From contig CAYODR010000002.1 in the NCBI GenBank assembly GCA_964402895.1, positions 41,666 through 105,665 on the forward strand: a DNA stretch of 64,000 nt, read 5' to 3'. Both the position numbers and the translations under genes were made by a program. Every line of letters begins with the position of its first letter. Position 1 is the first letter of the stretch. Positions 7,944-50,399 of this stretch are shown here, one piece after another. The notes beneath the pieces were generated by a model. That model worked only from the letters and a program-made list of their open reading frames with translations, did not search any database and was not told where the DNA came from. The DNA comes from an uncultured Candidatus Saccharibacteria bacterium. GTDB taxonomy: Bacteria > Patescibacteriota > Minisyncoccia > Phycocordibacterales > UBA9973.

Positions 7944-8024
7944 TATGGTTATTATACAAATATTAGTAAATAATAAAAGCTTCTATACAATCTTTACATC
8001 ATATTTTATGGTATATGTCAATAG

Positions 8025-8111
8025 CGGAGGATAGGAGATTCGAACTCCTGAGGGCATTACTACCCTGCCACCTTTCCAAGATGGTGCACTAGACCGCTAT
8101 GCGAATCCTCC
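8025..8111 (-). tRNA. tRNA-Ser (anticodon GGA)
   Basis: Manual fold: acceptor GGAGGAT/ATCCTCC, 3-bp D-stem, anticodon stem CCATC/GGTGG, loop TTGGAAA, long variable arm, T-arm GGAGTTCGAATCTCC. Confidence 0.8.
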
Positions 8112-8146
8112 ACAACATACATATTATATATGTATGTTGTGATTGT

Positions 8147-8854
8147 CTATTCAAAAGAAATTTCTTTTTCTTCTTCCCCTATTTTATATTTAAGAGTACT
8201 TTGTCCTTCCCAAGAAATGAAAGATGCATTTTGCATGCGGGCATCCAAATATTCTGTATCATTTATTTTTTCTATGATTTCTAAAGTATTTGCATCATAT
8301 ACATAAAGCCCACATTTTGCTTCAAAACAAGAACCTCTATAAACAAAGTATTTTCCATCAGCTGAGAACCCTAAAAATTCATTTCCTAAATAATAGTTAG
8401 TGAGCATTTTCACCCCACCTTCTTGTGTATATACACCTACAACAGTATCCGGTGCCAAAGTGTCGCTTTCAATGGTAAAACCAACAACATCATTTTTAAG
8501 AGATGAAAAAACATTCTTAAAACTAGTCTGTTCTCTAAAGCTCTCTACGCTCATACAAAAAGATTCTCTTCCAAATACACCCATCATGTTAAATTCATCA
8601 CAAAGATCACTATTTTTAAAAAATTCAAAAATTTGCTCATTATCAATAGAAAGATAGACAGAATCACCACTCATGATTTCTTTTTGATTATTAGAGAGAG
8701 TATATAGGTTTAAAATAACCTCTTCTTGCGTCTTCTCTTCTAATGAAGAAGACAATGTCTGCCTATTTGTATCATACGCATACTTAATAAGCCAAACTAA
8801 AAATAATACAACTGCGATACCTGCTATGATTTGGAAAAATTTTTGTTTATTCAT
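8147..8854 (-). CDS. hypothetical secreted/membrane-anchored protein
   Basis: 235 aa; N-terminal TM (IIAGIAVVLFLVWLI); no family recognised. Confidence 0.5.
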   Translation of the reverse strand: MNKQKFFQIIAGIAVVLFLVWLIKYAYDTNRQTLSSSLEEKTQEEVILNLYTLSNNQKEIMSGDSVYLSIDNEQIFEFFKNSDLCDEFNMMGVFGRESFCMSVESFREQTSFKNVFSSLKNDVVGFTIESDTLAPDTVVGVYTQEGGVKMLTNYYLGNEFLGFSADGKYFVYRGSCFEAKCGLYVYDANTLEIIEKINDTEYLDARMQNASFISWEGQSTLKYKIGEEEKEISFE

Positions 8855-8994
8855 ATATATAATTATAGTTTTTTATAAGATAAAAACAAATACTTTAAAA
8901 CCCGACCTTAGTACTCTTTGTGATAAAACATCATAAACACAAATATTATTTTAATAAAAAAACCTTTAAATAAAAGTCGGAGAATTTTAATATA

Positions 8995-9480
8995 CTATTT
9001 TCCCCCAAGATCTTCAGAGTCTCTTATTTTCATCCATATTTTTCCTAAGATATTTTCACCATTTCCATCAGGCCCTGCTCCCCAAAAATTATCTATGGGA
9101 GAATTTTCAATTATTTTTTTATTACCCGTCTCTCTTAAAACCCTTCTCACCTTTTCATGCTGTCTGATTTTAGCTTTTAAAATCTCTTCCATAATTTGAG
9201 TCTTTTTATTATGAAAATCTATAGGCACATGTGTTCTATGCTCATCTGAAATCTTTTTAGCAATACTTGGACTAGGTGCCATTAATATATCATTAGCTAA
9301 TTCAGGCTTTGAATTTTCAAATTTTTTCCACTGATATGCGTGTTCAGCTGTTAAGAATTTATTTCCCCATATATCTACAACATATGCGGAAAAATTATCT
9401 AATGCATAAAATACTGGGGTATAAAAATAAATAGCATCATCAGTTTCTTTGTTAAAATCATTTCCTAAAAATTTATTCAT
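8995..9480 (-). CDS. NADAR family protein (YbiA-like N-glycosidase domain)
   Basis: AEHAYQWKKF...NSPIDNFWGAG..GNGENILGKIWMKIR matches NADAR/DUF1768; start trimmed to ATG 9480 because the longer ORF would run through tRNA-Ser at 9519..9605. Confidence 0.7.
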   Translation of the reverse strand: MNKFLGNDFNKETDDAIYFYTPVFYALDNFSAYVVDIWGNKFLTAEHAYQWKKFENSKPELANDILMAPSPSIAKKISDEHRTHVPIDFHNKKTQIMEEILKAKIRQHEKVRRVLRETGNKKIIENSPIDNFWGAGPDGNGENILGKIWMKIRDSEDLGGK

Positions 9481-9518
9481 ATTCTCTAAATAATTAAACT
9501 TGCACCAAATTCTTTTAG

Positions 9519-9605
9519 CGGAACCGGTGGGATTCGAACCCACGAGGGCTTTTACACCCTGCCTCTTTAGCAAAGAGGTACATTCGACCACTCTGACACG
9601 GCTCC
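9519..9605 (-). tRNA. tRNA-Ser (anticodon GCU)
   Basis: Acceptor GGAGCCG/CGGTTCC, anticodon stem CCTCT/AGAGG, loop TTGCTAA, long variable arm, T-arm GGGTTCGAATCCC. Confidence 0.8.
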
Positions 9606-9682
9606 ATAAAGATACTTTATCATATATAAAAATAAGGACAAAATATATACACGAATATAAATAAGGGGTATAATATTTTTGT

Positions 9683-10114
9683 ATGAAAAATATTATAAAG
9701 AGAAAAGTTTGTACTTCACAATTTATTATCCGATTATTTATTGGGACCATTTTCTTAGCACATGGTATTGCTAAATTCAATATCGGAATGGATGGTGTTT
9801 CAGAATTTTTTGGAAGTGTATCCATTCCCTTCCCAACATTCTTTGCCTGGGTTGTGACATTACTTGAAACATTTGGTGGACTATTTATTATTCTTGGTGT
9901 TTTTGTCAGAAAGTCAGCAACACTTTTGATGTTTACTATGCTTGTGGCTATTTTTACAGCCAAGAAAGGATTACCCTTAGTTGGCGGATATGAATTAGAG
10001 CTCGCACTTATAGCTGGACTTATACCATTATTAGTACATGGCGCAGGAAGATATTCTATAAAGAAATTCTTCAAGAAAAAAGAGGTACAAAATACTCCTA
10101 TCCCTCAATATTAA
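9683..10114 (+). CDS. DoxX family membrane protein
   Basis: 143 aa, 4 TM; FLAHGIAKF...FFAWVVTLLETFGGLFIILG typical of DoxX. Confidence 0.75.
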   Translation: MKNIIKRKVCTSQFIIRLFIGTIFLAHGIAKFNIGMDGVSEFFGSVSIPFPTFFAWVVTLLETFGGLFIILGVFVRKSATLLMFTMLVAIFTAKKGLPLVGGYELELALIAGLIPLLVHGAGRYSIKKFFKKKEVQNTPIPQY

Positions 10115-10117
10115 AAC

Positions 10118-10165
10118 AATAAAGAAAGGCATATCCAAAAAGATATGCCTTTCTTTATTAAAACA
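10118..10165. terminator. bidirectional hairpin terminator
   Basis: aaagaaaggcatatc..gatatgcctttcttt perfect 15-bp stem with A/T flanks. Confidence 0.6.
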
Positions 10166-10204
10166 TTTAATTATGCTAATATCATAAACACAAAGACCAT
10201 TACT

Positions 10205-10294
10205 GGAAGCGTGGATGAGTGGTTGAAATCAACGGTTTACTAAACCGTCAGGCTGTAAAAGGTCTCGTGGGTTCAAATCCCACCGCTTCCGCCA
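10205..10294 (+). tRNA. type II tRNA (Ser-like, encoded CCA), apparent anticodon ACU
   Basis: Acceptor GGAAGCG/CGCTTCC+G+CCA, 3-bp D-stem, anticodon stem ACGGT/ACCGT with loop TTACTAA, long variable arm, T-arm GTGGGTTCAAATCCCAC. Confidence 0.6.
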
Positions 10295-19920: not shown

Positions 19921-20358
19921 ATGGAATACATCCGCAACAAAAAGGCTTCTTTTGATTATTCTTTTGAAAAAACAATTGAAGCTGGTATAGAACTCTTGGG
20001 TACAGAGGTCAAATCTGTTAAAAATAAGCACGGCGGTCTAAATGGTGCTTATATACAAGTCTTTGGCGGAGAAGTGTTTTTAATGGGCGCTCATATCCCA
20101 GCATTTCAAGAAAAAAATGCACCGTTAGGATTTGACCCTTATAGAAACAAAAAGCTATTATTAAAGAAAAAAGAGATTGAGGAAATATTAAAAGCCCTCT
20201 CAACCAAGGGCTTGACTGTAATCCCTATTTCATTGTATAATAAAGGGAGTATCATTAAGATACAAATAGCCATAGCTAAAGGTAAGAAGAACTTTGATAA
20301 AAGAGAAACTATCAAAGCGCGAGATATCGAAAGAGATTTAGCGCGAGAACTTTCCTAA
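19921..20358 (+). CDS. smpB: SsrA-binding protein SmpB
   Basis: 145 aa; ...FDYSFEKTIEAGIELLGTEVKS... SmpB fold; immediately upstream of tmRNA. Confidence 0.9.
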   Translation: MEYIRNKKASFDYSFEKTIEAGIELLGTEVKSVKNKHGGLNGAYIQVFGGEVFLMGAHIPAFQEKNAPLGFDPYRNKKLLLKKKEIEEILKALSTKGLTVIPISLYNKGSIIKIQIAIAKGKKNFDKRETIKARDIERDLARELS

Positions 20359-20360
20359 AT

Positions 20361-20735
20361 GGGGATGACAGGTTTCGATATATAAATGCTTTAAATATAT
20401 GCATACCGAGCATGAATAAACTCGTTAAATTTATTCAAAACGATTAACTGGCAACAGTATCGCAAAAGTAAAGTCACCTTTTAGTGGCTTTGCTCCGGCA
20501 TTCGCTTAAATAAGCCAATCTGGTGTCGTACGAAGTGAAACTTGATAACTTCATTACGGCAAAATTCATCAAGTTATAGTTTTATACTGTCTTGATATAA
20601 AACTGAAAATAAAAGACTCGAAGAAATATCATTTTGTAAGGTTTATAGATTTTCTTTTAAAAAACAAAACCATACTAAGTATGTAGATTATATTTAATGC
20701 CTTATATACACGGGGTTTCGATACCCCCATCTCCA
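20361..20735 (+). ncRNA. ssrA: transfer-messenger RNA (tmRNA, ssrA)
   Basis: 5' GGGGATGACAGGTTTCGA pairs with 3' ...CATCTCC+A (tRNA-like acceptor); T-arm GGGGTTTCGATACCCCC; internal tag ORF ...AKVKSPFSGFAPAFA-TAA; directly after smpB. Confidence 0.8.
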
Positions 20736-20742
20736 CAAAAAA

Positions 20743-20770
20743 AGCCAGCCCCTTTCGGGGGCTAGTTTTA
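20743..20770 (+). terminator. rho-independent terminator after ssrA
   Basis: gccagcccctttcgggggctag + TTTTATTT. Confidence 0.7.
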
Positions 20771-20918
20771 TTTGTGGAGACGGAATAAGCAAATTTATTT
20801 GCTTATGTGGGTATCGAAATGTCGGAGCTATATTGAGCTTGCGAAATAAGCGAGACGGGCTCGAGAATACTTATCAGAATTTGAGCTTGCGAAAAATTAT
20901 GATTAGTAATTCGTGAGG

Positions 20919-20938
20919 CGATACCCCCATCTCCACAA
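20919..20938 (+). repeat. exact 20-nt duplicate of tmRNA 3' end (cgatacccccatctccacaa), 200 bp downstream of the original
   Basis: Identical to 20719..20738; third partial copy atctccacaata at 21446..21457. Confidence 0.8.
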
Positions 20939-20990
20939 TACAAAATCCCGAAAGGGTTTTTTTGGTGTATGCGTATATTACCAGTATCTA

Positions 20991-21019
20991 TTGACTTTTT
21001 AATAAAGATATATTATAGT
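20991..21019 (+). promoter_or_regulatory. sigma70-like promoter (TTGACT-17-TATAGT) preceded by terminator 20943..20968
   Basis: ttgactttttaataaagatatattatagt upstream of ORF 21063. Confidence 0.5.
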
Positions 21020-21062
21020 ATTAAAAAATTTTCTAACTCAAATTAATAAAAAAATATAGACC

Positions 21063-21434
21063 ATGGTAGAAATAAAAAAGTTTAGACAATTTTTCTTTAG
21101 CTTAGGAGAACTTTGTCAACAAATTAGGTCAGTAGAAAGACCTGAAGATATATCTGATTACACAAAGATAAATATTATTCCAGATGTATTATTGGAAAGA
21201 TTTCCAGAAGTGGTAGCAAGTTTTTATATGTCAATGCATCGAACGCAGGCAGAGAGTATCAAATGCTTTTTGATGAAAGATGGATCAGTTGTAGTTGAAT
21301 TTTATGATTCAAATTATAAAATTGAGAATATGGTGAATTACAAAACCATCACAGAGGTCCGACGAAACCAAATTTCAATTATCCATCATCTTTCAAAAAT
21401 ATCGACAAGAATGGATTTCAATTTATTTTTTTAA
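21063..21434 (+). CDS. hypothetical protein (cassette ORF 1 downstream of tmRNA)
   Basis: 123 aa; no family recognised; flanked by tmRNA-end repeats. Confidence 0.45.
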   Translation: MVEIKKFRQFFFSLGELCQQIRSVERPEDISDYTKINIIPDVLLERFPEVVASFYMSMHRTQAESIKCFLMKDGSVVVEFYDSNYKIENMVNYKTITEVRRNQISIIHHLSKISTRMDFNLFF

Positions 21435-21483
21435 GAAAAAAAATTATCTCCACAATAAAAAAGTCCCGAAAGGGATTTTTTGT

Positions 21484-21511
21484 TTGACTTTTTATATTTT
21501 ATATATAGAAT
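21484..21511 (+). promoter_or_regulatory. sigma70-like promoter (TTGACT-16-TAGAAT) preceded by terminator 21459..21480
   Basis: Second copy of the repeat-terminator-promoter module. Confidence 0.45.
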
Positions 21512-21536
21512 AAAATCAGAACTAAAAAATAAAGAT

Positions 21537-21839
21537 ATGGCTAATCAAAAATCTAGAAATCAATCTAACTTGATTGACGAAAGCTGGTTGGGATTAAAAA
21601 ATTTCAACAAAGCATCAGGACTAACCCACCGAGAAGCATTGGATAAGGGTATAGATTACCTCGCAAGAAATAAAGATCTAATAGGTATTGTTGTTACCTA
21701 TAAAGGAGAATATTCCTTTCGACTAATCAACCTGAGTCGTTTTAGGCTTCCGCCTAATCACCCGCAACTTTGTTGCAACATAACCTACAAAAGAAGTGGC
21801 CAAGAATTTTGTAAGTTCTTGGGCATAAATGCTGTATAG
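21537..21839 (+). CDS. hypothetical protein (cassette ORF 2)
   Basis: Start trimmed to ATG 21537 (MANQKSRNQ...) downstream of the promoter; 100 aa. Confidence 0.4.
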   Translation: MANQKSRNQSNLIDESWLGLKNFNKASGLTHREALDKGIDYLARNKDLIGIVVTYKGEYSFRLINLSRFRLPPNHPQLCCNITYKRSGQEFCKFLGINAV

Positions 21840-21851
21840 CATCGCAAGAGA

Positions 21852-21880
21852 TTTTTAAAACCCCGCCTTAAAAAGCGGGG
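21852..21880. terminator. bidirectional terminator
   Basis: aaaaccccgccttaaaaagcggggtttg. Confidence 0.6.
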
Positions 21881-21885
21881 TTTGT

Positions 21886-22650
21886 TTATTTTTTTATATC
21901 CACCCTCTTTATTCTATAAGCCAGCGCGGGTACTCTTAATTTTTCACCTATGTATTCAGCTAATGATCTCATATAAGTACCGCTAGAAACTTCAGCTTCA
22001 AAACTAACAATTATGACTTCTTGATCTTTGTTTTTCACTAAAAACTTTCTCCAGCCATTAGCAATCTCATCTTGCCGAAAATCGCCCTCTACACTTTCTA
22101 TGATAGGCAGTGTCTCATATACACAATCACTTACTTTTTTTCTTTCTATACCCAAGAGTTTAATATCTCTGATATATACATTCTTTACTGGTACATCTAC
22201 AATATTTCCTTCCCGTGCATGCATAAAAAGAGGTTTTCCTTCTACCGGCCTTGAAGAGTACATTGGATAAGAAAGCTCTCTAATATAAGAAATAGATTCT
22301 ACCGCCTGCCTTACAACTTCATCAGTATAGAAAGACACCCCCGCACTTGAAGTCACCAGCCCAAGCATATCAAGCGTATCAGTTTTTACCCCCAACAAGA
22401 CTTGTACTTCATAAGTCTTGTCTTTATTTGAATATTTCTCTTTCTTAAAACGAGCCATACCCTCAAGGATTGGAACTATTCCTGAGGCCATTGGGTCAAG
22501 TCTCCCGGCATAAGTGAGTTTAGATTTCTCTGATAATCCATACTCCTTTTTAAATCTTTCAAGCATAATAGCCAAAGTCTCACCTTCTTTTTTCCAAAAG
22601 TAATAAATTCCTTGACTATTTAACTTATTTTGTGTATTATCTAAAGACAT
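21886..22650 (-). CDS. truB: tRNA pseudouridine synthase (TruB-like)
   Basis: AGRLDPMASG catalytic-Asp motif region; 254 aa. Confidence 0.65.
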   Translation of the reverse strand: MSLDNTQNKLNSQGIYYFWKKEGETLAIMLERFKKEYGLSEKSKLTYAGRLDPMASGIVPILEGMARFKKEKYSNKDKTYEVQVLLGVKTDTLDMLGLVTSSAGVSFYTDEVVRQAVESISYIRELSYPMYSSRPVEGKPLFMHAREGNIVDVPVKNVYIRDIKLLGIERKKVSDCVYETLPIIESVEGDFRQDEIANGWRKFLVKNKDQEVIIVSFEAEVSSGTYMRSLAEYIGEKLRVPALAYRIKRVDIKK

Positions 22651-23971: not shown

Positions 23972-24511
23972 TTAACTATTTTTAATTTTCTTAAGCAAAT
24001 TAAAGCTATTAGCATGAATACAATGCCCTAGATAAGAACTTACCTTAGGAATATCTTTGATTTGGATAAAACCATCTTTTTTATTCAAAATTTCATTATA
24101 AAAACTTTTAATATCCATTTTTAAATAAAAAAGTCTTTGCCTATTTACACCCCCGCGAGTAATAAAAAATCGCGCCCTCTTAAAAGCACGGTGTGTCCCC
24201 CTACCAATCCTATTGGCAAAAGAGCTATCCAAAAATTGTTTCTCAAAAATCTCTTCTATTTCATTACACAAAAGATGTTGAACTATCCTGTCCCTAAAAT
24301 CACTAGCAAAAACTTCCCTTGGTGCAGGATTTTTTACTACAAAACATATATGTCTAGATATTTTGTATTCCCCACTCTTTAATTCATTCAACAATTCTAA
24401 CAAATTAGCCTCACGATTTAATTCAAATTTTAAAGCATTTGTAGTATTTTTTTTATTTCTTATACATTGCTTATAAGCCATGTATAAATTTTTCATTGTA
24501 AAAATCGTCAT
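23972..24511 (-). CDS. DGR-type reverse transcriptase, C-terminally truncated (domains 1-3 only, no YxDD)
   Basis: 179 aa; NPAPREVFASDFRDRIVQHLLCNEIEEIFEKQFLDSSFANRIGRGTHRAFKRA matches the conserved DGR RT N-terminal block (FRDRVVHHALCN..E.IFE..F...SYA.R.GKGTH.AL.R); motif 3 YLKMDIKSFYNEI; ORF ends ~50 aa later. Confidence 0.75.
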   Translation of the reverse strand: MTIFTMKNLYMAYKQCIRNKKNTTNALKFELNREANLLELLNELKSGEYKISRHICFVVKNPAPREVFASDFRDRIVQHLLCNEIEEIFEKQFLDSSFANRIGRGTHRAFKRARFFITRGGVNRQRLFYLKMDIKSFYNEILNKKDGFIQIKDIPKVSSYLGHCIHANSFNLLKKIKNS

Positions 24512-24546: not shown

Positions 24547-25338
24547 CTAGGCGGCACAGCGGACATACCTCCCATTAGTAACGCTATGCCTATTCACACT
24601 ACCATTATTGAAATTCTGGGGGTAAGCATAGGAACTAGAAGAAGAAGTAGAAGACCAGTAAGCGCCCGAAACAAAGGAAAGGTTCCCACTTTGTGCTCCA
24701 TAGTCATTGATAGCTTTTAGGATTTCAACAGATGGAAGTCTTTTACCAAGTGAAGCACAGGTATTGTTGGCATTAGCCCAATTTAAAAGTGTGGTACTAT
24801 CATTTATATCATTTGCATCTAATGTGATAACTCCTGTTGTGTCTACTCCGTAGTGTCTATTGTTGTAGTATACTGCCACACCGAAGTTTCTAGTCTCTAG
24901 GGAGTCTTCTGGGACATAGTGAGTATTTAATGTGGTATCTGGAACATTTGAAGTTCTAACAACACATCTGATATTTCCTGCTCCTGCAATACTTACGAGT
25001 GCATCTATCATGGGCTGTATTGATGAGTGTGGTGATATACCTGTTTTGTTGTATGCACAAAGTCCTGCAAATGTACCATTGTCTAGGTGGTATAGTTGTG
25101 CTTGAGTTTGAAGATTCTTTAGATTTGATTTGATTGAAGCTACTCTACCACTTGTGCGAGCTGAGTTTAGTGATGCGATAACTACACCTGCGAGGATTCC
25201 GATGATTGCAATCACTACTAAAAGTTCAATGAGCGTGAAGGCTTTATTTTTATTATTAAAAATTTTTAGCGCAGAGAAACTCTTTTTAGAATAGCGCCCC
25301 TTCATTTGTATTTTTGGATGAAAGGTTAATTTTTTCAT
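24547..25338 (-). CDS. type IV pilin-like protein with C-terminal FGE/C-type-lectin-fold domain carrying a DGR variable-region scaffold
   Basis: Start at MKKLTFHPK (25338). Prepilin N-terminus NNKNKAFTLIELLVVIAIIGILAGVVIASLNSA. C-terminal C..LGKRLPSVEIL...GAYWSSTSSSSSYAYPQNFNNGSVNRHSVTNGRYVRCAA ends the ORF. Stop is 35 nt upstream of the DGR RT ORF. Confidence 0.75.
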   Translation of the reverse strand: MKKLTFHPKIQMKGRYSKKSFSALKIFNNKNKAFTLIELLVVIAIIGILAGVVIASLNSARTSGRVASIKSNLKNLQTQAQLYHLDNGTFAGLCAYNKTGISPHSSIQPMIDALVSIAGAGNIRCVVRTSNVPDTTLNTHYVPEDSLETRNFGVAVYYNNRHYGVDTTGVITLDANDINDSTTLLNWANANNTCASLGKRLPSVEILKAINDYGAQSGNLSFVSGAYWSSTSSSSSYAYPQNFNNGSVNRHSVTNGRYVRCAA

Positions 25339-25549
25339 GTTTTTATTATAACATAGATATTTTATAAAAAGTACAATATACTTACCTTGATAAAAACAAC
25401 AAAATTCCAGTATTAGGTTTATTTTTTCCATAATCCTATCATTTTAGCTATTTAATCCTATCATAATGATAGGATTAGTAAAAAAATTTTAAGCTTTATA
25501 TTTATTAAATAAACTTGCATATGATAATATCATATGATAATATCATACT

Positions 25550-50040: not shown

Positions 50041-50045
50041 TCATG

Positions 50046-50363
50046 TGTTGTACTAGTAAGCCGAATTCTGTTTAAATGATTATTTATCTAGGATGTAAAT
50101 TACTCTACACCTCAAGCGACACTCCAGAATAAATCTGGCACGGCCTTGCACACAAGTAAGGATTTAGCCGTTTCAATTTTATAGTTACCTATAAAGCTTA
50201 TCCCAAATGGGATACCTCTACCTTTCGGTTTTGGCGTCTCTGTTCGCACCTCGCACCTTGCGATGGATGGGTATTACCCACTACTCTGCTCCTTGATAAA
50301 TCAAGGGTGTGTTCGGACTTTCCTCACATAACCTAAAGCTATGCGCAATCAAACAGTACAACC
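50046..50363 (-). ncRNA. rnpB: RNase P RNA (bacterial type A-like, reduced)
   Basis: On minus strand: P4 strands GAGGAAAGTCCGAACAC (50325..50309) and ACAGAATTCGGCTTAC (50072..50057); GGTGCGAGGTGCGAAC P10/11-like block; P1 pairing TTGTACT/AGTACAA at ends; GC content well above flanks. Confidence 0.8.
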
Positions 50364-50399
50364 ATTATTACTTTACTTGAAATGAGTTAAAAGTAAAGA

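What the first reader, a model, noticed from the sequence alone, without database searches (positions are those of the whole stretch)
20719..21520. Tandem duplications of the tmRNA 3' end, each followed by a terminator-promoter-small ORF module
The last 20 nt of ssrA (cgatacccccatctccacaa, T-loop half + T-stem + acceptor 3' strand + discriminator) recur exactly at 20919..20938, precisely 200 bp downstream, and as atctccacaata at 21446..21457. Each later copy is followed by a near-identical hairpin terminator (aaaa(t/g)cccgaaaggg(t/a)tttttt), a TTGACT-type promoter, and an unrelated small ORF (123 aa and 100 aa). Integrative elements that target ssrA duplicate exactly this 3' segment, so these look like stacked att-site remnants of small cassettes lacking an integrase, or a repeated cargo module.
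Basis: seen in the sequence. Interest (0 to 1): 0.7.

Follow-up and report, generated by a model that had tools for sequence, protein, structure and literature searches.

The report
Structured RNA and gene cassettes behind tmRNA
Behind the ribosome-rescue RNA gene (tmRNA) of this tiny Paceibacterota bacterium sit a previously undescribed folded RNA element, whose two ends copy the tmRNA tail in antisense and in sense, and one or two small gene cassettes; this marks the tmRNA tail as a reusable landing pad and reveals a new RNA family.

Summary
The last 20 nt of ssrA recur exactly 200 bp downstream, and ATCTCCACAATA recurs 517 bp further on. Each later copy is followed by a similar terminator, a TTGACT promoter and a small ORF.

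The first "cassette" (20739-20938) is a terminator plus a ~165-nt structured element found behind ssrA in more than 40 Paceibacterota loci. It is absent from Rfam 15.

- **Head:** an antisense copy of the tmRNA's last ~21 nt, split by a covarying hairpin (H1).
- **Body:** a covarying three-way junction.
- **Tail:** the sense copy, which is repeat 2.

Covariation is strong (92.5% paired against 38-47% in slid controls), and the + strand folds better in 25 of 25 cases. In one contig the head is instead antisense to a neighbouring tRNA-Cys.

The element is ancestral in the window's subclade and partly deleted in close relatives. It also occurs in tandem and in arrays elsewhere.

ORF123 (between repeats 2 and 3) belongs to a rare protein family. 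In all six distinct contexts recovered it lies directly behind a t(m)RNA-like 3' end. ORF100 has no homologue.

No integrase is present. One relative has a DsiB-like serine recombinase abutting ssrA.

Verdict: a known theme (tandem accretion at ssrA) in a new, miniature form, with a novel RNA.

The parts
19921..20358 (+). smpB, the protein partner of tmRNA
   Evidence: ORF of 145 aa. Pfam SmpB annotation on the matching Logan contig.
20361..20738 (+). ssrA (tmRNA), standard one-piece form. Tag peptide GNSIAKVKSPFSGFAPAFA is encoded at 20450-20509. The gene ends ...CCAC-A-CAA, so CCA is not encoded.
   Evidence: Rfam RF00023, 99.4 bits, model 1-374. Tag translation. Relatives carry similar tags.
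20719..20738 (+). Repeat 1: the 3' half of the T-loop, T-stem 3' strand, acceptor 3' strand and discriminator of the working tmRNA gene.
20739..20773 (+). Trailer and terminator 1 (stem 20747-20763). It scores as a terminator on both strands and forms the tip of a long palindrome that joins repeat 1 to the head.
   Evidence: inverted repeat I1. The hairpin core differs among the four close relatives, with compensatory changes.
20774..20819 (+). Head of the structured element. It comprises the anti-acceptor segment GTGGAGACGG (20774-20783), hairpin H1 (20785-20806) and the anti-T segment GGGTATCG(AAA) (20809-20819). Together the segments are the reverse complement of the tmRNA's last ~21 nt.
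   Evidence: H1 pairs covary.
20820..20918 (+). Body of the element: a three-way junction with helices P4/H2 and P5/H3. P5 carries conserved G.U pairs.
   Evidence: Alignment A1 and RNAalifold. Pair counts. Single-sequence fold z = -5.3.
20919..20938 (+). Repeat 2: the sense copy of the tmRNA end. It is the 3' strand of the element's closing helices P3 and P1.
   Evidence: The same arrangement occurs in L003, L005, L014, L082, L084, L085, L102 and L117.
20939..20966 (+). Terminator 2 (AATACAAAATCCCGAAAGGGTTTTTTT). It resembles the trailer that follows the tmRNA itself in relative L003.
   Evidence: Repeat family D1. L003 trailer sequence.
20991..21019 (+). Promoter-like site TTGACT-17-TATAGT upstream of ORF123.
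21063..21434 (+). ORF123, a member of a rare ~125-aa family of unknown function that recurs behind t(m)RNA-like 3' ends.
21446..21457 (+). Repeat 3 (ATCTCCACAATA), the right-hand boundary of the ORF123 unit.
21458..21481 (+). Terminator 3, homologous to terminator 2.
21484..21511 (+). Promoter-like site TTGACT-16-TAGAAT upstream of ORF100.
21537..21839 (+). ORF100, an orphan gene with no homologue found. It is either a third cassette or the older neighbour of ssrA.
21858..21883 (.). Terminator shared with the convergent truB gene (21886-22650, minus strand). It is the right-hand limit of the variable interval.

Best explanation
**What it is.** The interval between ssrA and truB is a variable, accretion-type locus whose units use the tmRNA 3' end as their boundary.

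**Unit 1 (20739-20938).** This is a terminator plus a ~165-nt structured element read on the same strand as tmRNA.
- Its head is an antisense copy of the tmRNA's last ~21 nt, interrupted by hairpin H1 exactly between the acceptor part and the T-stem part.
- Its body is a three-way junction.
- Its tail is a sense copy of the tmRNA end. The tail pairs with the head to close the fold.
- The head can alternatively pair with the real tmRNA end just upstream.

The element looks like an old insertion at the T-loop of ssrA. It brought a replacement tmRNA 3' end and a terminator, and it uses the displaced old tmRNA end (and often the old terminator) as its own 3' strand. It has since been inherited mainly vertically and has co-evolved with the local tmRNA.

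**Unit 2 (20939-21457).** This is a one-gene cassette (terminator, promoter, ORF123) bounded by a duplicated ATCTCCACAATA-plus-terminator segment. It landed on the tmRNA-like tail of unit 1, not in ssrA itself.

**ORF100.** It is either a third such unit or the older neighbour of ssrA.

**Shown.**
- The repeats.
- The fold and its covariation.
- The preference for the + strand.
- The family's distribution.
- Differences between relatives in which units are present.
- The recurrence of ORF123 relatives behind t(m)RNA-like ends.

**Inferred.**
- Insertions are made by a site-specific recombinase supplied in trans. A large serine recombinase of the kind that abuts ssrA in relative L011 is a candidate.
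- The element is expressed as RNA by read-through of the ssrA terminator.

What the RNA does is not established. My best guess is that it handles read-through ssrA transcripts, by pairing with the unprocessed tmRNA tail and insulating the downstream genes, while also acting as a decoy landing pad.
For: **Repeats.**

**Family.**
- A head pattern found 37 metagenome stretches, about 33 of them real. Nearly all lie after a sense copy plus a palindromic terminator.
- 8 of the 17 closest ssrA loci from genomes carry the inverted copy of the tmRNA end after the terminator; 7 of these have the full head motif.
- Rfam has nothing here.

**Fold.**
- 27 of 35 pairs show compensatory changes.
- 92.5% of cells are paired, against 38-47% when the partners are slid.
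- 178 double-change cells, against 16-42 in the slid controls.
- 0 of 500 shuffles reach the observed values.
- The + strand is more stable in 25 of 25 elements, by 11.7 kcal/mol on average.

**Head follows the neighbouring gene.**
- It tracks the A-to-G acceptor variant and the GCTCATT T-loop variant of the local tmRNA.
- A median of 20 of the 24 upstream nucleotides are predicted to pair with it, across 41 elements.
- In L126 the head is antisense to tRNA-Cys and is followed by a body matching the family profile at E = 8e-9.

**Insertion signature.** L117 carries, after its element, the same trailer that follows the tmRNA directly in element-free L010 and L015.

**Variable interval in syntenic relatives.**

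**Tandem copies and arrays with conserved cassette ends.**

**ORF123 family.** It has five remote homologues. With the window, the family is seen in six distinct contexts, every one directly behind a t(m)RNA-like 3' end or between repeats of such ends.

**Candidate recombinase.** L011 has a 542-aa Resolvase plus Zn_ribbon_recom protein, convergent with and overlapping the ssrA 3' end. This mirrors the Dehalococcoides ssrA islands, which have 20-bp direct repeats (PMC3146451).
Against: - No recombinase gene lies in the units, in the window, or recurrently in about 45 loci.
- No promoter is seen for the element, which sits behind a terminator, so its expression is unproven.
- Element-body similarity follows tmRNA similarity (rho = 0.53).
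- Within the window's subclade the element is ancestral, with deletions in L127 and L131. Recent mobility of unit 1 is therefore not shown.
- The L010/L117 comparison fits loss by recombination between the repeats as well as it fits gain.
- Cargo in L130 and L131 is not flanked by tmRNA-end repeats.
- Many elements lack the acceptor part of the 3' sense copy.
- The element's helix P1 also pairs the discriminator and the base after it, so it is not a clean tRNA mimic.
- No copy was found in viral contigs.
Confidence: 0.55

Rival explanations
1. **Purely vertical host RNA.** The element is an ordinary chromosomal ncRNA gene, or a structured ssrA trailer, that has always sat behind ssrA in this lineage. 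On this view:
- the sense and antisense copies are simply the two strands of its closing helix and of an extended terminator palindrome;
- they are kept identical to the tmRNA end by gene conversion or by template-switch correction of quasi-palindromes;
- the variable genes downstream arrive by unrelated routes;
- repeat 3 is a local duplication.
For: - Body identity correlates with tmRNA identity, and no pair has an element much more similar than its tmRNA.
- The element is ancestral in the window's subclade, with decay in L127 and L131.
- There is one copy in 64 kb.
- There is no recombinase and no viral copy.
- Antisense extension of the terminator into the tmRNA end persists even where H1 and the body are gone (L131 and L017).
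Against: - Tandem copies of different body types occur at one locus (L099, L102, L092).
- In L103 the element is the fourth unit of an array whose cassettes have conserved left and right ends.
- A member with a retargeted head lies behind tRNA-Cys.
- ORF123 relatives are flanked by repeats of other tRNA 3' ends.
- About half of the close relatives lack the element.
Confidence: 0.25
2. **DNA-level hairpin attachment site.** The sense copy, terminator and antisense copy fold in single-stranded DNA into a stem that imitates the double-stranded tmRNA 3' end. A recombinase that recognises ssrA integrates the folded strand, as XerCD does with the folded attP of CTX-phi or as IntI does with attC. On this view the body is single-strand structure, not RNA.
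For: - The integrated topology (sense site, loop, inverted site, body, sense site) is the one CTX-phi leaves behind (my own knowledge of that system).
- The palindrome is universal and extends through the trailer.
- Units are stacked without an integrase.
- CPR bacteria are thought to take up DNA (own knowledge).
Against: - Conserved G.U positions and a strong strand asymmetry fit RNA better than DNA.
- An element of about 200 nt carries no replication or packaging function.
- No free or viral copies were found.
Confidence: 0.08
3. **RNA-programmed mobility.** The head works as a guide or as a primer-binding site. Either it pairs with the 3' ~21 nt of a chosen t(m)RNA or its gene to direct insertion, or the t(m)RNA 3' end primes copying of the element RNA, as tRNAs prime retroviruses.
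For: - The head is complementary to exactly the T-loop-to-3'-end segment.
- It is retargeted to tRNA-Cys in L126.
- CCA follows the discriminator in 16 of 41 copies that precede an element, but in 0 of 9 element-free ssrA genes.
Against: - No reverse transcriptase or RNA-guided enzyme is associated. The only RT-like ORF is a truncated remnant 2 kb away in the window and is absent from all other loci.
- The head is split by a hairpin, unlike known primer-binding sites.
- The pattern of inheritance is mostly vertical.
Confidence: 0.08
4. **Interrupted or permuted tmRNA gene.** The repeats reflect a group I intron in the T-loop or a two-piece tmRNA gene.
For: - Group I introns in the tmRNA T-loop are widespread and can be under 200 nt (PMC11915505).
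- The base before repeat 1 is U and the base before repeat 2 is G, as intron boundary rules require.
Against: - The upstream gene copy is complete and uninterrupted: it matches Rfam's standard tmRNA model over positions 1-374.
- It is followed at once by a terminator.
- No Intron_gpI or permuted-tmRNA hit appears even at E = 10.
- The fold is a simple three-way junction without the group I core.
Confidence: 0.01

Closest known systems
ssrA-specific genomic islands of Dehalococcoides (PMC3146451)
   Same: [quoted passage not shown]
- Some units lack the integration module and were proposed to be cis-mobilizable.
- Relative L011 has the matching ~540-aa serine recombinase on the reverse strand against ssrA.
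   Different: - The units here are 0.2-0.5 kb with at most one small gene, against 10-30 kb.
- There is no integration module anywhere in the array.
- The first unit is a structured RNA element with an inverted copy of the site, which has not been described for those islands.
Cis-mobilizable elements (CIMEs) and tycheposon arrays at tRNA/tmRNA genes (bioRxiv 10.1101/2020.12.28.424599)
   Same: - Units without an integrase are flanked by partial t(m)RNA repeats.
- Newer insertions push older ones outward.
- They sit in small, streamlined genomes.
   Different: - No intact integrase-bearing parent element was found for these units.
- The cassettes carry their own promoter and terminator.
- The cassette ends are conserved over only a few tens of bases.
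Integron gene cassettes and the folded attP of CTX-phi (own knowledge)
   Same: - Single-gene units are stacked at one site.
- Each boundary carries an imperfect palindrome.
- The layout of sense site, loop and inverted site matches what integration of a folded single strand leaves behind.
   Different: - No IntI or Xer gene is adjacent.
- The cassettes have their own promoters.
- The palindrome tip is a transcription terminator.
- The evidence favours RNA over single-stranded DNA.
Primer-binding sites of retroviruses and LTR retrotransposons (own knowledge)
   Same: A segment complementary to the 3'-terminal ~18-22 nt of a specific tRNA-like molecule (T-loop half, T-stem, acceptor strand). 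In this family it targets tmRNA in most members and tRNA-Cys in one.
   Different: - The complementary segment is split by a hairpin.
- No reverse transcriptase, LTRs or polypurine tract are present.
- The element is chromosomal and mostly vertically inherited.
Group I introns in the tmRNA T-loop (PMC11915505)
   Same: A small structured RNA is associated with the T-loop position of ssrA.
   Different: - The gene here is not interrupted.
- The fold lacks the intron core.
- No Rfam intron hit was found.

Membership tests
Integrative islands at t(m)RNA genes (ssrA-GI type) | The insert is bounded by the intact gene on one side and by a direct repeat of its 3' end on the other. | tested here: met
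   20/20-nt repeat at 20719 and 20919, and a 12-nt repeat at 21446. The tmRNA is intact.
Integrative islands at t(m)RNA genes (ssrA-GI type) | An integrase gene lies inside the element, next to one att site. | tested here: not met
   - Only ORF123 and ORF100 lie in the interval, and neither matches Pfam, PHROGs or PADLOC.
- tblastn with a Xer-type recombinase and with a Y1 transposase finds nothing in the window.
- Cargo in related arrays is miscellaneous.
Integrative islands at t(m)RNA genes (ssrA-GI type) | The insert is present in some related genomes and absent from others at the same site. | tested here: met
   - L127 is nearly empty.
- L130 has the element plus other genes.
- L131 has a restriction-modification pair.
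- Only the window has ORF123 and ORF100.

Cis-mobilizable elements | att-like repeats lie on both sides, with no recombination or transfer genes. | tested here: met
   Met for the ORF123 unit and for the cassettes in L103, L092, L123 and L125.
Cis-mobilizable elements | Excision or integration is driven by a helper element's recombinase. | not testable with these tools
   The only lead is a candidate serine recombinase abutting ssrA in L011.
Integron cassette array | An intI gene and attI lie next to the array, and the cassettes are promoterless and end in attC. | tested here: not met
   The neighbours are smpB and truB. Each ORF has its own TTGACT promoter. attC R-box motifs were not searched for.
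Group I intron in the tmRNA T-loop | The intron interrupts the gene and has the P3-P8 core. | tested here: not met
   The tmRNA matches its model uninterrupted over positions 1-374. There is no Intron_gpI hit at E up to 10. The consensus fold is a three-way junction.
Two-piece (permuted) tmRNA | The acceptor piece precedes the coding piece in the gene. | tested here: not met
   The gene has the standard order and matches the full model.
Any Rfam 15 family | A match at or near the family's gathering score. | tested here: not met
   - Window at gathering threshold.
- Window 20735-20970 and L003 6940-7180 at E up to 10: only chance hits on the terminators.
- 13 array loci: only tmRNA and tRNA.
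Retroelement primer-binding site | Complementarity to the 3'-terminal ~18-22 nt of a t(m)RNA. | tested here: met
   The complementary segment is split by hairpin H1.
Retroelement primer-binding site | An associated reverse transcriptase. | tested here: not met
   There is only a truncated RT-like ORF at 23972-24511, with no counterpart in the other ~130 loci.
IS110 bridge RNA / IS200-IS605 guide RNAs | The RNA is encoded at the end of an element that carries the matching transposase. | tested here: inconclusive
   A Y1 transposase lies next to one element only (L082), and there is none in the window. DEDD (IS110-type), TnpB and IscB proteins were not searched for specifically.

The most novel reading that the evidence does not exclude
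The element is a programmable RNA. Its head chooses a t(m)RNA 3' end by ~21 nt of base pairing. The target is tmRNA in most lineages and tRNA-Cys in at least one. This pairing directs or primes insertion of the element and of the small cassettes that travel with it, without an integrase in cis. That would be a new class of RNA-targeted mobile element in CPR bacteria, with ORF123-family proteins as possible partners.
Probability: 0.1. Interest if true: 0.9.

Novelty: new variant of a known kind. Interest (0 to 1): 0.66.

Why it matters
- **A new RNA family.** It has more than 40 examples, very strong covariation, a defined genomic address, and an unusual design: its two ends are the antisense and sense copies of the tail of the neighbouring tmRNA, or in one case tRNA-Cys. 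It is not in Rfam, so it can be submitted, modelled and probed at once.
- **Gene gain in streamlined genomes.** Paceibacterota genomes acquire accessory genes (restriction systems, toxin-antitoxin pairs, orphans) as very small units stacked on t(m)RNA tails without a resident integrase. This bears on how CPR bacteria, which have few recognisable mobile elements, exchange genes.
- **A lead on function.** The ORF123 family now has a genomic signature, always lying behind a t(m)RNA-like end. That gives a starting point for working out what it does.

Tried and rejected
- **ARAGORN on the window** missed the tmRNA. Rfam was used instead.
- **Family scans of the two ORFs** (Pfam, PHROGs, PADLOC) gave only noise.
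- **The word-indexed protein search** found only self hits for both ORFs. The exhaustive HMMER search rescued five homologues of ORF123. ORF100 could not be run there because the cap is one job.
- **Structure prediction.** Single-sequence AlphaFold models had pLDDT 45 and 51, too poor for fold search, so no fold search was run.
- **A profile of the ORF123 family** against PDB sequences and Pfam found nothing.
- **Exact-protein look-ups** of the window's SmpB and ORF123 returned only the same organism.
- **Five pattern scans of viral contigs** returned zero hits: the head, the body, the palindrome and two cassette junctions.
- **The RT-like ORF at 23972-24511** as a possible partner was rejected. 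It is truncated and unique to the window.
- **A Xer-type recombinase near one array (L088)** looks like a housekeeping gene and does not recur.
- **An IS200 transposase** was seen next to one element only.
- **Similar repeats at the window's four tRNA genes** were searched for and not found.
- **L002 against L003.** I first read their 66% element identity, against 97% tmRNA identity, as evidence that the element had been replaced. I withdrew this because the coding flanks are themselves only 80-90% identical.
- **Other RNA classes considered by eye and dropped** for lack of their defining motifs or partner proteins:
  - hammerhead or other small ribozymes;
  - H/ACA- or C/D-like guide RNAs;
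  - T-box;
  - a clean tRNA mimic that RNase P and RNase Z would process. P1 also pairs the discriminator and the next base.
Full report
**1. Setting.**

The window comes from a Paceibacterota (Patescibacteria/CPR) genome. The closest SmpB proteins in a one-genome-per-species collection are 73-74% identical and come from Paceibacterota and Minisyncoccia MAGs.

The local gene order is PGA_cap(-), ftsH(-), smpB(+), ssrA(+), a variable interval, truB(-), infC, rpmI, rplT. Rfam finds a full-length standard tmRNA at 20361-20738; ARAGORN misses it. The tag peptide is GNSIAKVKSPFSGFAPAFA, close to the tags ARAGORN reports for relatives. The gene ends in CAA, so CCA must be added after transcription.

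**2.

- The 20-mer CGATACCCCCATCTCCACAA occurs exactly twice in 64 kb, 200 bp apart (0.01 expected).
- ATCTCCACAA occurs a third time at 21446.
- Repeats 2 and 3 share about 38 nt that run into similar terminators.
- The two TTGACT promoters and the terminators are picked up by the consensus scan.
- Both ORFs have coding-like codon usage in frame only. It is weaker than in core genes, which fits acquired or fast-evolving genes.
- An independent assembly carries the same sequence.

**3.

Directly after the first terminator lies an inverted copy of the tmRNA end (inverted repeats I1 and I3). The same feature appears in 8 of the 17 closest ssrA loci from genomes. In three of these, and in the window, a sense copy follows about 175-190 nt after the tmRNA end.

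I searched metagenome contigs with a pattern taken only from the inverted part and its hairpin. It returned 37 stretches, about 33 of them genuine. Nearly all lie just after a tmRNA 3' end, or after another unit's ATCTCCAC end, plus a terminator whose palindrome extends outward to include both copies. The same pattern found nothing in viral contigs.

**4. Anatomy of the element.**

| Part | Window coordinates | Description |
|---|---|---|
| Head | 20774-20819 | GTGGAGAYG(G), then an 8-bp hairpin H1 (loop usually ACUGCU, AUUUAU in the window), then GYG-GGGGAAUCGAA. With H1 removed, this is the reverse complement of the tmRNA's T-loop half, T-stem, acceptor strand and discriminator. |
| Body | 20820-18 | A three-way junction: P4 plus hairpin H2, and P5 plus hairpin H3. 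|
| Tail | 20919-20938 | The sense copy. It pairs with the head to form P3 and P1. |

Evidence for the fold, from an alignment of 25 type 1 elements (A1):

- RNAalifold predicts 35 pairs, 27 of them with compensatory double changes.
- 92.5% of cells are paired, against 38-47% when partners are slid by 1-3 columns.
- There are 178 double-change cells, against 16-42 in the slid controls.
- None of 500 shuffles reaches the observed values.
- P5 holds conserved G.U pairs.
- All 25 sequences fold more stably on the + strand than on the - strand, by 11.7 kcal/mol on average.
- The window's copy folds with z = -5.3.
- When the tmRNA tail is included, the predicted fold switches: the head pairs with the real tmRNA end instead.

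Rfam 15 has no matching family. This was checked at the gathering threshold and at E up to 10, in the window, in L003 and in 13 array loci.

**5. The head follows its neighbour.**

- Across 41 elements, a median of 20 of the 24 nucleotides at the end of the upstream copy are predicted to pair with the head.
- Where the tmRNA has an unusual acceptor base (CCGTCTCC) or an unusual T-loop (GCTCATT), the head carries the matching change. This holds even in elements that lack the acceptor part of the 3' sense copy.
- In contig L126, a body matching the family profile (E = 8e-9) lies downstream of a tRNA-Cys gene.
- Its head reads GGAGGCGTGTG, hairpin, GTTGGGAGTCGGAA, which is the antisense of that tRNA's 3' end.
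- It was the only such case among the 26 tRNA genes in the fetched loci.
- The head is therefore tuned to whichever t(m)RNA gene the element follows.

**6. Inserted or resident?**

*Signs of insertion and turnover*

- L117 has, after its element, the same trailer that follows the tmRNA directly in element-free L010 and L015. That is the signature of an insertion bounded by repeats, or equally of a deletion between them.
- Tandem copies, sometimes with different body types, occur in L082, L083, L084, L092, L094, L099 and L102.
- Arrays with up to five same-strand ATCTCCAC copies occur in L092 and L103.
- The cassettes in these arrays have conserved right ends (...GAGGTTCTAACGTCATTCATTA|ATCTCCAC) and conserved left ends.
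- Their cargo is miscellaneous: GIY-YIG, HAD hydrolase, histidine phosphatase, a toxin-antitoxin pair, DUF3825.

*Signs of long residence*

- Body similarity tracks tmRNA similarity (rho = 0.53), with no outlier pairs.
- The window holds a single copy.
- The four closest syntenic relatives (SmpB 78-81% identical) share the tmRNA end and the head.
- The window and L130 have the whole element.
- L127 keeps only a decaying head.
- L131 keeps only 14 nt of antisense.

I conclude that the element is an old arrival at ssrA, now behaving largely as a resident. It still duplicates occasionally and can be deleted.

**7. The ORF units.**

- The close relatives lack both ORF123 and ORF100. The same interval is about 105 nt in L127, holds two other small ORFs in L130, and holds an HNH nuclease plus a DNA methylase in L131.
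- ORF123 has five remote homologues of 112-127 aa among 1.8 billion representative proteins.
- Their contexts are:
  - behind tRNA-Ala in L122 and L124;
  - between ATATCGAAGTCCAC repeats in L123;
  - behind a tRNA 3' fragment in L119-L121;
  - between 27-nt tRNA-like repeats in L125;
  - behind an element-like tail, and beside the tRNA-Cys element, in L126.

- With the window, that makes six of six distinct contexts.
- The family has no Pfam or PDB relative.
- ORF100 has no homologue anywhere and no repeat on its far side.
- The simplest history is therefore two events. The ancestor was ssrA, then the element, whose tail is followed by terminator, promoter and ORF100. The ORF123 unit then inserted and duplicated ATCTCCACAATA plus the terminator.

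**8. Who does the cutting and joining?**

Nothing in cis. No recombinase lies in the interval or the window, and none recurs in the arrays.

Relative L011 has a 542-aa large serine recombinase, convergent with and overlapping the ssrA 3' end. This is the layout of the Dehalococcoides ssrA islands, which also form tandem arrays bounded by 20-bp repeats and include units without an integration module (PMC3146451). A helper recombinase acting in trans is therefore the most economical inference, but it is only an inference.

**9. What the RNA does is open.**

There is no promoter in front of the element, so it would have to be made by read-through of the ssrA terminator.

- **Favoured reading.** The RNA deals with read-through ssrA transcripts and insulates the downstream genes, and its tmRNA-like tail offers a second landing site.
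- **DNA-level folded site.** This alternative fits the topology.
- **Guide or primer-binding role.** This alternative fits the retargeted head, but it lacks a partner enzyme. The only RT-like ORF nearby is a remnant.

**10. Comparison and verdict.**

The theme of t(m)RNA 3' fragments left by stacked integrations is well known (PMC4131195, PMC3146451, bioRxiv 10.1101/2020.12.28.424599). New here are:

- the miniature, integrase-less, single-gene scale of the units;
- the ORF123 family's constant address behind t(m)RNA-like ends;
- above all, a conserved structured element whose ends are antisense and sense copies of its neighbour's tail.

I rate it a new variant of a known kind, with interest 0.66.

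Noticed in passing
window 23972-24511 (-) and 24547-25431 (-): A truncated reverse-transcriptase-like ORF of 179 aa (Pfam RVT_1, E = 0.0017). It stops after the early RT motifs. It lies next to a pilin-like protein with an N-terminal methylation motif and a weak Lcl_C (DUF1566) domain. The pair looks like the remnant of a diversity-generating retroelement and its target. No TR/VR repeat search was done.
   Followed up: partly
L011 6112-7740 (-): A 542-aa large serine recombinase (Resolvase + Zn_ribbon_recom) whose 3' end overlaps the last ~64 nt of the tmRNA gene. This is the layout of the Dehalococcoides ssrA-specific integrase DsiB. A T-arm-like hairpin (GGGGTTCGATAACCC) lies ~70 nt past the tmRNA end.
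   Followed up: partly
L126 630-790 (-), next to tRNA-Cys c[913,986]: A member of the element family behind a tRNA-Cys gene, with its head antisense to that tRNA's 3' end. The contig also begins with another element-like tail directly before the ORF123 homologue.
   Followed up: partly
L103 (reverse-oriented) 5363, 6336, 8911; L092 403; L082 2692; L085: A conserved ~45-nt cassette right end (GGRYATTCT..TTTCAAYCAAAGAGGTTCTAACGTCATTCATTA) lies directly before ATCTCCAC. A conserved left end (AGATATAGAAGTAGATAGAACTATATGGAAGAATA plus a terminator) lies after it. Together they would form a ~100-bp attP-like junction.
   Followed up: partly
L091, L092, L094, L097, L100, L101, L103, just after the element tail: A further conserved non-coding module (GTGACNGYGTGCGAAGCACACAATT...CGTCCGTCGTC...CAAAAATTATTACAACACG) follows both type 1 and type 3 bodies. 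Its nature is unknown, and Rfam has no hit for it.
   Followed up: no
L007, L103, L017, L087, L088, near ssrA: Small GIY-YIG nuclease genes (79-107 aa) recur directly before or after ssrA in five loci. They may be a separate kind of selfish gene at this site.
   Followed up: partly
L010 3496-3587 and L117 ~790-900: The trailer shared by element-free and element-bearing loci contains a conserved stretch, GTAGGCTCCCGTTTTCTTAGACCRAAGGTCTGTTGAAAACGCAGTCCTTTAGG. It includes a hairpin and may be another conserved non-coding feature.
   Followed up: no
copies of the tmRNA end across loci: An encoded CCA follows the discriminator in 16 of 41 copies that precede an element, but in 0 of 9 element-free ssrA genes. 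The samples are not phylogenetically independent, so this is only suggestive.
   Followed up: partly
window 8024-10294: - Three tRNA-Ser genes lie within 2.3 kb. One is called with anticodon ACT (10205-10294).
- Its 3' end is nearly identical to that of the neighbouring tRNA-Ser-GCT.
- The gene at 8024-8111 is called by ARAGORN but is not listed by Rfam at the gathering threshold.
   Followed up: no
window 50041-50364 (-): The RNase P RNA scores only just above Rfam's gathering threshold (105.5 against 100), with large deletions relative to the class A model.
   Followed up: no
window 20745-20765 and the terminators of L127, L130, L131: The ssrA terminator core differs completely among four relatives that share identical tmRNA ends, and every difference is compensated. 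The A-run and T-run flanks and the outer palindrome are kept.
   Followed up: partly
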